Shown here: in pieces, positions 2,775 to 3,846 of the stretch
How positions within the stretch are numbered: position 1 is the stretch's first letter
Layout of the letters: every line of letters starts with the position of its first letter
From: Candidatus Thorarchaeota archaeon
GTDB taxonomy: Archaea; Asgardarchaeota; Thorarchaeia; Thorarchaeales; Thorarchaeaceae
Direction of reading: 5' to 3'
NCBI GenBank assembly: GCA_004524445.1
Contig: SDNP01000044.1
Span: 1-17,235, forward strand
DNA: 17,235 nt
Program-made: the position numbers and the translations under genes
Notes under the pieces: model-generated
What the model was told of the DNA's origin: nothing
Databases searched by the model: none
The model's input: the letters and a program-made list of their open reading frames with translations, nothing else

Positions 2775-3846
2775 CCTTATTATCTTCGTTTTCGGCTATT
2801 ATATTTATCATTGCATAGAGGGCTTGTCGACCATCCCTGAGAGAAACCCGCTTTTTTATGAGTCCTTCTGAGAGCAGCAAAGAGAGTGCATATCGCACTG
2901 TTCTTGGTGGAAGCATTGTTTCCTCTATGATTTGTTTATGTGTTAATTGCCCTTGATATTCCAGCATCTTGAGCACCAATTTCGCGCTGGGTGGCAAATC
3001 GTGGACGAGATCCTCTGTGATTTCTGCCTTTTTCATCAGTTTTCCTCTGAGTGCTGCTACCTTTTCTTCATCGAATTTTACGAATATGGCATCATCATCT
3101 GATTTTTGGATTACAACTGGGCTACCATCCACCCTGGTCCTAATCTGACCATCTAAGACAATTTCTGTAGGTACTGATTTGCTAAGATGGCGTATTTCTA
3201 CTTCCGTGCCTTCAGGTACAATGATTGGATGTCGAGATGGATTAACGCTGTTTACAGGAACAATAGCAAAAACTGCAGCAGTGTTCAGAACGACAGGTCC
3301 TCCAACACTCATGCTGTACGCGGTGCTACCAGTTGGAGTGGCTATTAGTAGACCATCGCTACCATCACTCCAGAAAGGCTCTCCATCAAGATATAGCTCA
3401 TATCGAATCAACGTCGCACTTCTTTTTGCAAAAAGTCCAATATCATTGAGGATTGGAGGAGATAAGTCCCCTGAGATGTTTGCAGTCAGTCTCGTTCGAG
3501 GATCCTTGGTCCATTTCTTATCCATTAGATCTTCAATAATTGTTGGAAATGAACTAATTGTCACGTCGAATAGAAAATCCGGCTGCCCTTTTGAGGAAAT
3601 TGGCAGGATTGGGATTGTTTTGTTCCCCAACTCCAGCAGCGTTCTCAACAACAGTCTATCTGAACCAACTATGATCAGAATATCGACATCAATGGCATTC
3701 AGATGGACGCCCTTTTCTGATATATTGTCTGCAAAGCTTTCCTCATAAATTACCTCGTCTCCATATTTCTTGATTTCTTCAACTACTTTCTTTGCGTCAT
3801 CTATCTGCGTTGTGCTTTGACCCGCGACGATACCGATTCTCGTAAT
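2764..3846 (-). CDS. NAD-kinase-fold protein with degenerate GGDG loop fused to C-terminal winged HTH (putative NAD(P)-sensing transcription regulator); non-canonical start
   Basis: The frame of track ORF 2764..3651 stays open to a TAG at 3879-3877 and encodes an NADK-like N-terminus (ITRIGIVAGQ...DVDILIIVGSDRLLLRTL). NADK motifs: LND, DGLLIATPTGSTAYSMSVGGP, LDGQ. C-terminal 'LPPSAKLVLKMLEYQGQLTHKQIIEETMLPPRTVRYALSLLLSEGLI..R...DGRQALY' is an archaeal MarR-like wHTH. GGAGG at 3855-3851 precedes ATT (3846) and ACG (3843). Confidence 0.85.
   Translation of the reverse strand: MTRIGIVAGQSTTQIDDAKKVVEEIKKYGDEVIYEESFADNISEKGVHLNAIDVDILIIVGSDRLLLRTLLELGNKTIPILPISSKGQPDFLFDVTISSFPTIIEDLMDKKWTKDPRTRLTANISGDLSPPILNDIGLFAKRSATLIRYELYLDGEPFWSDGSDGLLIATPTGSTAYSMSVGGPVVLNTAAVFAIVPVNSVNPSRHPIIVPEGTEVEIRHLSKSVPTEIVLDGQIRTRVDGSPVVIQKSDDDAIFVKFDEEKVAALRGKLMKKAEITEDLVHDLPPSAKLVLKMLEYQGQLTHKQIIEETMLPPRTVRYALSLLLSEGLIKKRVSLRDGRQALYAMINIIAENEDNKDAK

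What the first reader, a model, noticed from the sequence alone, without database searches (positions are those of the whole stretch)
3580..3666. NAD kinase catalytic loop is degenerate (GGDGT -> GSDRL) while NAD-binding motifs are intact
Seen: 'ILIIVGSDRLLLRT' (GSDR at 3666-3655) replaces the GGDGT signature, and 'PISSKGQPDFL' replaces the usual 'GINxGxLGFL'. LND and DG..IATPTGSTAYS.S.GGP are retained. Established: the GGDG loop binds phosphate and carries the catalytic Asp, and the NE/ND and TAY..S.GG motifs bind NAD(P). Inference: a pseudo-kinase that still binds the dinucleotide. The new Arg might favour the 2'-phosphate of NADP. The Asp is kept, so residual activity is possible.
Basis: partly seen in the sequence, partly recalled or inferred. 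Interest (0 to 1): 0.7.

Follow-up and report, generated by a model that had tools for sequence, protein, structure and literature searches.

The report
NAD-kinase-derived sensor fused to DNA-binding domain
An Asgard archaeon carries a second, remodelled copy of NAD kinase that has lost the kinase's glycine-rich catalytic loop but kept its NAD pocket and gained a DNA-binding domain, so it is most likely an undescribed regulator that tunes NAD synthesis (nadA) to the cell's NAD(P) level.

Summary
The gene at 2764-3843 (-) encodes an NAD-kinase fold plus a C-terminal winged helix. GGDG reads GSDR, and NxGxxGFL reads SSKGQPDFL. The NAD-contact motifs are intact: ND, and DG..TPTGSTAY..GGP.

The change is a conserved derived signature, not decay. 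GSD[R/K] and S-K-G-Q-P-D-F-L are nearly invariant in about 80 Thorarchaeota orthologues, while their synonymous codon positions are saturated.

The genome also has a canonical GGDGT NAD kinase on another contig, as do 72 of 76 genomes of the same family.

Among 75 HTH-fused cluster representatives from several archaeal phyla, only 18 keep GGDG and 13 have lost even the Asp. Among 65 unfused ones, 54 keep it, and the rest are mostly fragments. In the two genomes checked where the fusion keeps GGDGT, no other classical NAD kinase was found.

The gene sits head-to-head with nadA in four Asgard families. The two genes are separated by two palindromes (GGCAA-N3-TTGCC) at a fixed distance from nadA. 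In two other families it sits beside a nicotinate/quinolinate phosphoribosyltransferase-family gene.

Best reading: a kinase-impaired NAD(P)(H) sensor and transcription factor. Activity and ligand are untested. This scan reached the same reading earlier on orthologues in other genomes. I found no paper describing the family.

The parts
2764..3843 (-). NADK-like/wHTH fusion gene (359 aa from the ACG start; stop TGA 2766-2764)
   Evidence: Translation. Pfam finds NAD_kinase_C plus MarR_2/HTH_24. The AF2 model has mean pLDDT 83. Foldseek TM-scores (normalised by target) to solved NAD kinases are 0.82-0.85. The start codon was placed by orthologue comparison.
3655..3666 (-). GSDR codons (G63 S64 D65 R66 of P0001) in the place of the GGDG catalytic loop
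   Evidence: Alignment to 7mh7, 7qvs and 2an1. GSD[R/K] occurs in 47 of 48 database orthologues and 31 of 32 Thor loci. All synonymous codons are in use at these positions.
3571..3603 (-). PISSKGQPDFL loop replacing the second N-domain motif (G)INxGxxGFL
   Evidence: The Asn is replaced by Ser, the second Gly by Asp, and there is a one-residue insertion. The loop is nearly invariant in the Thor clade.
3442..3447 (-). N136-D137, the NE/D short motif (contacts the adenine and the nicotinamide-side ribose in NAD kinases)
   Evidence: Invariant N136. Motif roles are taken from PMC9763689 and PMC8553519.
3292..3357 (-). Conserved region II, D166-V187 (DG..TPTGSTAY..GGPV): the NAD-binding and dimer-interface motif, intact
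   Evidence: Invariant D166, G167, P173, T174, G175, S176, T177, Y179, G184 and G185. These correspond to Asp-189...Thr-200, Tyr-202 of the M. tuberculosis enzyme.
2809..3003 (-). Winged helix-turn-helix (residues 284-348), after a low-confidence linker (270-280)
   Evidence: Pfam MarR_2 scores 25.0 bits, below its cut-off of 27; HTH_24 scores 18 bits. AF2 gives a helix/helix/helix/strand/strand pattern over residues 288-348 (H288-300, H305-312, H316-328, E332-336, E344-348). This is the most conserved part of the protein: 80% mean pairwise identity in 32 Thor sequences. The LPxRTVRxAL helix is conserved across all Asgard lineages.
3936..3948 (.). Operator candidate O1, the perfect palindrome GGCAA-TTG-TTGCC
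   Evidence: Exact or one mismatch off in all 31 Thor intergenic regions, 93-99 nt from the nadA start. The spacer and flanks vary. It is the only intergenic exact copy in the 2.79-Mb genome.
3965..3977 (.). Operator candidate O2, GACAA-ACT-TTGCC, 29 bp from O1 and 11 nt upstream of the nadA TATA element
   Evidence: A second TTGCC lies 56-61 nt from the nadA start in all Thor intergenic regions.
3989..3998 (+). nadA TATA-like element (CGTTATAACG; TTAAAAG or TTAATAA in orthologues)
   Evidence: Conserved position in the intergenic regions listed side by side. Its function is inferred.
3894..3905 (-). TATA-like element of the fusion gene's own promoter (conserved CTTAAATGA on the + strand in orthologues)
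   Evidence: Its function is inferred.
4031..5005 (+). nadA (quinolinate synthase), divergent from the fusion gene: the presumed target
   Evidence: Pfam NadA, E = 4e-100. The divergent arrangement is found in every f1 locus whose flank reaches that side, and in families f2, f15 and f5.
621..2774 (-). Beta-CASP/metallo-beta-lactamase gene overlapping the fusion gene's stop by 11 nt (probably the same operon)
   Evidence: It lies downstream of the fusion gene in the f1 and f2 loci.

Best explanation
The gene encodes a transcription factor whose sensor is a remodelled NAD kinase. Each step below is marked as shown or inferred.

**Shown**
- It has the two-domain NAD-kinase fold.
- The residues that contact NAD in true kinases are kept: Asn/Asp of the NE/D motif, and Asp, Thr and Tyr of conserved region II.
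- The phosphoryl-donor side is rebuilt (GGDG to GSD[R/K]; NxGxxGFL to S-K-G-Q-P-D-F-L).
- A winged helix is attached by a flexible linker.
- A separate canonical NAD kinase is present in the same genome.

**Inferred**
- The protein no longer makes NADP at a useful rate.
- It binds NAD(H) or NADP(H) in the old substrate pocket at the dimer interface. Arg/Lys66 possibly contacts a phosphate there.
- Ligand occupancy sets how the paired winged helices sit on two palindromes (GGCAA-N3-TTGCC, O1 and O2) between its own promoter and the nadA promoter.
- End-product logic, and the position of O2 directly upstream of the nadA TATA/BRE, suggest that the liganded protein represses nadA (and itself) when NAD(P) is plentiful. 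The sign of regulation is the weakest inference.

**Evolutionary reading (inferred)**
- The ancestor was a bifunctional kinase/regulator. That state is still seen where the fusion keeps GGDGT and is the only classical NAD kinase: one Asgard family, and one Micrarchaeota genome.
- The catalytic loop was freed once a stand-alone NAD kinase was present.
For: - **Motifs and fold:**
- **Derived motif under purifying selection:**
- **Constraint by domain in 32 Thor sequences:** wHTH 80%, NAD-binding C-domain 71%, N-domain 49% mean pairwise identity. In the canonical kinases of the same genomes the N-domain is 66% and the C-domain 78%.
- **Canonical GGDGT NAD kinase present:** in the own genome, in 72 of 76 genomes of the same family, and in f5, f16, f20, f15 and f2 genomes that carry a GGDG-less fusion.
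- **GGDG status:** 18 of 75 fused against 54 of 65 unfused representatives keep it. The loss is patchy on the tree.
- **Where the fusion keeps GGDGT:** no other classical NAD kinase was found in G007 or in a Micrarchaeota genome.
- **Gene linkage:** the divergent nadA is conserved down to 31-35% protein identity. A QRPTase/NAPRTase-family gene is the neighbour in f16 and f20; nadA was not found in any of 7 f20 genomes.
- **Operators:** palindromes at a fixed position in all Thor intergenic regions, and a GGCAA-N3-TTGCT variant in f5.
- **Roles of the motifs:** PMC9763689 and PMC8553519.
- **Precedents for the logic:** NrtR (PMC2330246) and RbkR (PMC5397151).
Against: - No biochemical data exist: kinase activity, ligand and DNA binding are all untested.
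- The catalytic Asp is invariant in the Thor clade, so residual or altered catalysis is possible.
- Three of five f20 genomes (87-91% complete) showed only the GRD[R/G] fusion and no stand-alone NAD kinase.
- The wHTH scores just below the Pfam cut-offs.
- Both operators lie upstream of both TATA elements, a position that in archaea can also mean activation.
- No further NAD gene in this genome carries the palindrome, so the regulon is minimal.
- The tree is a FastTree with weak deep branches.
Confidence: 0.72

Rival explanations
1. It is a bifunctional 'trigger enzyme'. The protein would still be an active NAD kinase, perhaps with altered donor or acceptor specificity, and would also regulate nadA, as RbkR, BirA and NadR combine catalysis with regulation.
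For: - Asp65 is invariant in the Thor clade, and the derived loop is itself strongly conserved. That conservation could reflect a modified active site rather than a dead one.
- Fused forms with an intact GGDGT exist and appear to be the only classical NAD kinase in their genomes.
Against: - All 54 unfused representatives that are not fragments of the fused family have GGDG.
- Both phosphoryl-donor motifs are rebuilt, including Gly to Arg/Lys and Gly to Asp.
- The N-domain is the least constrained part.
- A canonical kinase co-occurs, which is the opposite of the RbkR criterion that enzyme and fusion never co-occur.
- Sister lineages lost the Asp but kept the wHTH; f5 among them also kept the nadA linkage and the operator.
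Confidence: 0.13
2. It is a regulator as above, but the effector is not NAD(P)(H). Candidates are a precursor (NaAD, NMN/NaMN, quinolinate), ADP-ribose or ATP, bound in the remodelled cleft.
For: - The remodelled N-domain cleft (GSD[R/K] plus SKGQPDFLF) is conserved as if it binds something.
- Known NAD regulators use varied effectors: ADP-ribose for NrtR (PMC2330246) and niacin for NiaR (PMC2330245 title and abstract).
Against: Every residue that mutagenesis showed to be vital for NAD binding or catalysis in true kinases is kept and invariant, apart from the glycines of GGDG. The simplest ligand is therefore the dinucleotide.
Confidence: 0.1
3. It is not a DNA-binding regulator. The winged helix would mediate protein or RNA contacts, and the protein would work with the co-transcribed beta-CASP nuclease, for example on NAD-linked RNA.
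For: - The beta-CASP gene overlaps the fusion gene's stop by 11 nt and follows it in the f1 and f2 loci.
- In one genome the match lies in a single 1075-codon open frame (not followed up).
Against: - The nuclease is missing from the f5, f15, f16 and f20 loci, while the wHTH and the NAD-gene linkage persist.
- A palindrome suited to a dimeric wHTH is conserved at a fixed place in the nadA promoter region.
Confidence: 0.04
4. It is a decaying, functionless paralogue of NAD kinase.
For: Family scores fall below the cut-offs.
Against: The open frame is intact in dozens of genomes. The derived motifs are fixed while synonymous sites are saturated. The structure prediction is confident.
Confidence: 0.01

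Closest known systems
NrtR (Nudix-related transcriptional regulator of bacterial NAD metabolism; Rodionov et al. 2008, PMC2330246)
   Same: - An enzyme-derived effector domain with a perturbed catalytic signature and retained ligand binding.
- A C-terminal winged HTH.
- The gene sits next to NAD biosynthesis genes.
- Palindromic operators can be predicted by comparative genomics.
   Different: - The sensor fold is Nudix, not NAD kinase.
- It is bacterial.
- Its effector is ADP-ribose.
- There is no sequence or fold relationship in the sensor domain.
RbkR (archaeal riboflavin kinase/wHTH regulator; Rodionova et al. 2017, PMC5397151)
   Same: - An archaeal fusion of a cofactor-pathway kinase with a MarR-like wHTH that controls the same pathway.
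- The GGDGT-keeping fused forms (G007, Micrarchaeota) look like this bifunctional state.
   Different: - In RbkR the wHTH is N-terminal, the catalytic residues are conserved, activity has been shown, and the fusion never co-occurs with the stand-alone kinase.
- Here the wHTH is C-terminal, the catalytic loop is rebuilt, and a stand-alone kinase co-occurs.
Canonical NAD kinase (NadK/PpnK; e.g. PDB 7mh7, 1u0r, 1suw; the own-genome paralogue on contig C10)
   Same: The two-domain fold, the NE/D motif, conserved region II and the Asp of the first motif.
   Different: - GGDG(T) and NxGxxGFL are replaced.
- Scores lie below the equivalog cut-offs.
- There is an extra wHTH.
- The N-domain evolves faster.
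NadR and NiaR (bacterial NAD repressors)
   Same: Feedback control of nadA-type genes by a protein that senses a pyridine nucleotide or a precursor.
   Different: - The sensor domains are unrelated (NMN adenylyltransferase/ribosylnicotinamide kinase; 3H domain).
- Both are bacterial.
- NadR's enzyme domains are active (as summarised in PMC5397151).
   Same: As I recall it, an archaeal regulator whose sensor is a catalytically disabled copy of a pathway enzyme joined to an HTH.
   Different: A different fold and a different pathway. A literature search for it here returned only false matches.

Membership tests
NAD kinase (EC 2.7.1.23; Pfam PF01513 + PF20143) | Two-domain NAD-kinase fold | tested here: met
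   AF2 mean pLDDT 83. Foldseek TM-scores (normalised by target) of 0.82-0.85 to 7mh7, 4hao and 2an1, E about 1e-26 to 1e-28.
NAD kinase (EC 2.7.1.23; Pfam PF01513 + PF20143) | GGDG motif carrying the catalytic Asp in a glycine-rich loop | tested here: not met
   It reads GSDR: the Asp is kept, and Gly2 and Gly4 are replaced. All unfused full-length representatives have GGDG.
NAD kinase (EC 2.7.1.23; Pfam PF01513 + PF20143) | [quoted passage not shown] | tested here: met
   N136-D137 and D166...T177, Y179...G184, G185 are invariant. Roles are taken from PMC9763689 and PMC8553519.
NAD kinase (EC 2.7.1.23; Pfam PF01513 + PF20143) | Curated family score cut-offs | tested here: not met
   Best NCBIfam equivalog 143 bits against 326. 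PF01513 scores 21.1 against 25.5. PF20143 passes, at 80.7 bits.
NAD kinase (EC 2.7.1.23; Pfam PF01513 + PF20143) | ATP- or polyphosphate-dependent phosphorylation of NAD | not testable with these tools
   Needs an enzyme assay.
Enzyme-derived sensor/wHTH regulators of cofactor synthesis (NrtR-type logic) | Winged HTH DNA-binding domain | tested here: inconclusive
   MarR_2 scores 25.0 bits against a cut-off of 27, and HTH_24 18.0 against 21.9. The AF2 secondary-structure pattern fits a wHTH, and this is the most conserved segment. DNA binding itself was not tested.
Enzyme-derived sensor/wHTH regulators of cofactor synthesis (NrtR-type logic) | Catalytic signature perturbed while ligand-binding residues are kept | tested here: met
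Enzyme-derived sensor/wHTH regulators of cofactor synthesis (NrtR-type logic) | Chromosomal linkage to genes of the sensed pathway across lineages | tested here: met
   nadA is divergent in f1, f2, f15 and f5. A QRPTase/NAPRTase-family gene is adjacent in f16 and f20.
Enzyme-derived sensor/wHTH regulators of cofactor synthesis (NrtR-type logic) | Conserved palindromic site in the target promoter | tested here: met
   GGCAA-N3-TTGCC lies 93-99 nt from the nadA start in all 31 Thor intergenic regions, with a second site 29 bp away and a variant in f5.
Enzyme-derived sensor/wHTH regulators of cofactor synthesis (NrtR-type logic) | Effector-dependent DNA binding | not testable with these tools
   Needs EMSA or footprinting with and without ligands.
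RbkR-type bifunctional kinase/regulator | Catalytic residues conserved, and the fusion never co-occurs with a stand-alone enzyme | tested here: not met
   The catalytic loop is rebuilt. A stand-alone GGDGT kinase is in the same genome and in 72 of 76 genomes of the family. The criterion is taken from PMC5397151.
NrtR family proper | Nudix-fold effector domain | tested here: not met
   No Nudix match. The effector domain has the NADK fold.

The most novel reading that the evidence does not exclude
NADK-wHTH proteins would be a previously undescribed, phylum-spanning archaeal family of NAD(P)-responsive transcription factors, found in Asgard, Bathyarchaeota, Nitrososphaerales and DPANN. That would make them the first NAD-sensing regulators proposed for Archaea.

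The family would also have been caught at several stages of an enzyme-to-sensor transition:
- bifunctional where the fusion is the only NAD kinase;
- a pure sensor, with a newly fixed GxD[R/K] phosphate-contact loop, where a stand-alone kinase exists.
Probability: 0.6. Interest if true: 0.75.

Novelty: new variant of a known kind. Interest (0 to 1): 0.62.

Why it matters
- **A gap in archaeal biology.** My searches of the held literature found no account of how Archaea control NAD synthesis. The known regulators (NadR, NiaR, NrtR) are bacterial. A NAD-kinase-derived sensor would fill that gap for Asgard archaea, the closest known relatives of eukaryotes.
- **A natural series for studying how sensors arise.** The same fusion occurs with an intact, a rebuilt and a destroyed catalytic loop. 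That makes it a good system for studying how an enzyme becomes a ligand sensor.
- **Annotation.** These genes are currently labelled 'NAD(+)/NADH kinase', 'sugar kinase' or 'hypothetical protein'. Metabolic reconstructions may therefore count them as a second NAD kinase.
- **A possible tool.** A protein that binds NAD(P) without turning it over, coupled to a defined 13-bp operator, could serve as a biosensor scaffold.

Tried and rejected
Neighbourhoods were taken from the genome search and the fetch from genomes instead.
- **Search for more regulon members in this genome.**
  - The four other exact copies of the palindrome all lie inside coding regions, with about 2 copies expected by chance.
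  - One-mismatch intergenic copies flank a PLP enzyme, a zinc-ribbon protein, a PfkB kinase, CysRS and a TPR protein, none of them NAD genes.
  - nadC on contig C56 and a second QRPTase-family gene on C50 have no site.
- **f16 and f20 upstream regions** show no GGCAA-N3-TTGCC.
- **The search for related loci with the GGDG-keeping fused alignment** used too generic a pattern. It returned mostly bacterial NAD kinases. Only four archaeal loci were useful, and the Iainarchaeum locus has a stop before the HTH, so it was not counted as a fusion.
- **Expression.** One salt-lake metatranscriptome holds three 151-nt contigs, 94-98% identical, on 2987-3277 and 4053-4201. DNA carry-over cannot be excluded, so this is no evidence of transcription.
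- **Literature.** Searches for a described NADK-HTH regulator found nothing. A search for ThiR gave only false matches to 'third'.
- **ATT at 3846-3844 rejected as the start codon,** in favour of ACG at 3843-3841.
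Full report
**The observation**

The minus strand of 2764-3852 is one open frame. It reads ...DILIIVGSDRLLLRT..., with GSDR on 3666-3655, and ...PILPISSKGQPDFLFD... phmmer alignments to solved NAD kinases (7mh7, 7qvs, 2an1) put GSDR on GGDG and I-SSKGQPDFL on IN-RGSLGFL. They also show LND and DG..ATPTGSTAYS.S.GGP matching the NE/D motif and conserved region II.

Pfam scores the C-terminal NADK domain at 80.7 bits. The N-terminal domain scores only 21.1 bits, against a cut-off of 25.5. A MarR_2/HTH_24-type winged helix is found at residues 284-343. 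The best NCBIfam NAD-kinase equivalog scores 143 bits against a cut-off of 326.

An AlphaFold model built on 49 sequences has mean pLDDT 83. It shows an NADK body (residues 1-269), a disordered linker (270-280) and a wHTH. Foldseek matches NAD kinases with TM-scores, normalised by target, of 0.82-0.85.

**What the literature says about the motifs**

- The Asp of GGDG is the catalytic centre at the 2' position of the adenosine ribose.
- The Asn and Glu/Asp of the NE/D motif, and the Thr and Tyr of conserved region II, recognise NAD.
- Mutating any of these abolishes activity in the M. tuberculosis enzyme.
- The NAD site is built across a dimer interface, with an Asp from the neighbouring subunit.

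These points come from PMC9763689 and PMC8553519. By alignment and motif length, D65, N136, D137, D166, T177 and Y179 of the window's protein correspond to Asp-85, Asn-159, Glu-160, Asp-189, Thr-200 and Tyr-202. All are present.

**A fixed new motif, not decay**

The 120 best database hits are all of fusion length, and every hit that carries an organism name is Thorarchaeota or Promethearchaeota. Most share 55-65% identity with the query. They are annotated variously as NAD kinase, sugar kinase, wHTH/MarR regulator or hypothetical protein.

- In 48 of these hits, aligned with the query, the loop is GSD[R/K] in 47 and GSDG in one. S-[K/M/R]-G-Q-P-D-F-L-F is nearly invariant.
- The same holds in 32 genomic loci, where the one exception reads GSDH.
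- At the DNA level these positions use all four Gly codons, four Ser codons, both Asp codons, five Arg codons and two Lys codons. Synonymous sites are therefore saturated while the residues stay fixed.

Constraint is uneven across the protein:

| Part | Fusion, 32 Thor sequences | Canonical kinase, same genomes |
|---|---|---|
| wHTH | 80% | n/a |
| C-domain (NAD-binding) | 71% | 78% |
| N-domain | 49% | 66% |

All 21 canonical kinases examined have IGGDGTILY and N[R/K]G..GF[L/M].

**A real NAD kinase exists alongside**

The window's genome (2.79 Mb, 90% complete) has four NADK_C matches:
- this gene;
- a 289-aa canonical kinase on contig C10, with IGGDGT and NRGTVGFM;
- two 380-390-aa relatives of a different subfamily, with GGDGTARD.

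The canonical kinase was found in 72 of 76 genomes of the same GTDB family. The fusion was found in 49 of 76.

**The wider fused family**

The fusion was found in 85 of 301 Asgard genomes sampled, across seven families. The motif state differs by lineage:

| Lineage | Motif |
|---|---|
| f1 | GSD[R/K] |
| f2 | GNDK |
| f15 | GDDG |
| f20 | GRD[R/G] |
| f16 | GGAA |
| f5 | GD[T/A]G or GGTG |
| f8 (G007) | GGDGT, intact |

An exhaustive search of 1.84 billion cluster representatives gave 83 hits at E < 1e-30. Of the best 150:
- **75 are full-length HTH fusions.** 18 have GGDG, 27 have GxD[R/K], 17 have another GxD, and 13 have no Asp.
- **65 are unfused.** 54 have GGDG. The other 11 are mostly short fragments that cluster with the fused family.

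Named members place the GGDG-keeping fusions in Micrarchaeota and Diapherotrites. Degenerate ones are named in Bathyarchaeota (GGDS) and Heimdallarchaeaceae (GSTG), and a Nitrososphaerales locus carries GGDR.

On a FastTree of the kinase domains, the unfused GGDG kinases form one group and GGDG loss is scattered among the fused clades. Well-supported branches force at least four changes. The deep branches are weak, so I claim no order of events.

**Complementarity**

- Where the fusion has lost GGDG, a stand-alone GGDGT kinase was found in G000, G026, G074, G041, G058, G105, G059, G029, G048 and G112.
- Where the fusion keeps GGDGT, no other classical kinase was found. This was checked in G007 (96% complete) and in a 0.8-Mb Micrarchaeota genome.
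- Exceptions: three f20 genomes (87-91% complete) showed only the fusion.
- The sample is small. The pattern is the reverse of what defines the bifunctional RbkR (PMC5397151).

**Genomic context**

nadA (Pfam E = 4e-100) is divergent from the fusion in every f1 locus whose flank reaches that side, and also in f2, f15 and f5. In f5 the proteins are only 31-35% identical to the query.

In f20 the next gene in the same direction, and in f16 the convergent neighbour, is a QRPTase/NAPRTase-family phosphoribosyltransferase. nadA was not found in any of seven f20 genomes. The GGDGT-keeping G007 gene has no NAD gene beside it.

**Operators**

The 153-194-bp intergenic regions of 31 Thor loci share little sequence apart from four features:
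- two TATA-like elements;
- the palindrome GGCAA-N3-TTGCC, 93-99 nt from the nadA start, exact in 26 regions and one mismatch off in 5;
- a second copy, G[T/A]CAA-N3-TTGCC, 29 bp further on and directly upstream of the nadA TATA element.

In the window these are O1 at 3936-3948 and O2 at 3965-3977. f2 and f15 carry one-mismatch versions. f5 carries GGCAA-N3-TTGCT at a fixed distance.

The helix LPxRTVRxAL of the wHTH is conserved across all these lineages. That fits a conserved half-site.

In the window's genome the only intergenic exact copy of the palindrome is the one at nadA. Weaker intergenic copies flank no NAD gene.

**Interpretation**

The evidence fits a transcription factor that senses a pyridine dinucleotide through a catalytically impaired NAD-kinase domain and controls nadA and itself. 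The logic is that of NrtR, in which a Nudix domain with a perturbed signature senses ADP-ribose (PMC2330246).

- **Shown:** the fold, the motif states, the co-existing kinase, the gene linkage and the conserved palindromes.
- **Inferred:** loss of kinase activity, the identity of the ligand, DNA binding and the sign of regulation.

R or K is fixed here, recurs in 27 of 75 fused representatives, and is absent from the 54 unfused representatives that keep GGDG. It could not be tested, because model coordinates are not exposed to scripts.

**Novelty**

I found no paper describing an NADK-HTH regulator or any archaeal NAD regulator. This scan had already noted orthologues in other genomes. Two follow-up agents reached the same reading. 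I tested the same points independently here.

The kind of system is known: an enzyme-derived sensor joined to a wHTH that controls a cofactor pathway. The NAD-kinase sensor, its archaeal range and the series of catalytic-loop states are new.

Noticed in passing
window 3841-3856 (-): The fusion gene has no ATG, GTG or TTG start. At the codon aligned with ACG 3843-3841, 8 orthologous loci carry ATG, 3 carry TTG, about 20 carry ACG and one carries TCG. The codon always lies 7-9 nt after GGAGG or GAGG. In three loci an in-frame stop lies 1-2 codons upstream of the ACG. The start is therefore a conserved ACG, not the ATT at 3846-3844.
   Followed up: yes
window 621-2774 (-): A 717-aa beta-CASP/metallo-beta-lactamase protein with a long N-terminal region that has no Pfam match. 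Its start overlaps the fusion gene's stop by 11 nt. It follows the fusion gene in the f1 and f2 loci but not in f5, f15, f16 or f20. In G224 the match to the fusion protein lies in a single open frame of 1075 codons.
   Followed up: partly
G000 contigs C42:4739-5146 and C29:75711-76118 (L003, L004): Two further NADK-family paralogues of 381 and 391 aa, with GGDGTARD and a weak DAGK_cat match. They belong to a different subfamily from classical NadK and are also present in other Asgard genomes.
   Followed up: partly
L039:5619-6884, L043:5520-6881: In Asgard families f20 and f16 the fused gene sits next to a 420-450-aa QRPTase/NAPRTase-family gene instead of nadA. nadA was not found in 7 of 7 f20 genomes.
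   Followed up: partly
window 5013-5675 (-): A HAD-family hydrolase lies convergent to nadA. It is conserved at that place in many f1 loci, and a HAD gene also abuts the GGDGT-keeping fusion gene of G007. Its substrate is unknown.
   Followed up: no
window 2987-3277 and 4053-4201: A salt-lake metatranscriptome run holds three 151-nt contigs, 94-98% identical to parts of the fusion gene and of nadA. Two freshwater-sediment metagenomes hold close relatives. This is too little to call the genes expressed.
   Followed up: partly
L044-L052 (Asgard family f5): The distance between the fusion gene and the extrapolated nadA start is 416-528 bp in this family, against about 170 bp in Thor. The palindrome GGCAA-N3-TTGCT lies at a fixed 254-257 nt from that start in seven of the eight loci, and at 288 nt in one. 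What fills the extra space was not examined.
   Followed up: no
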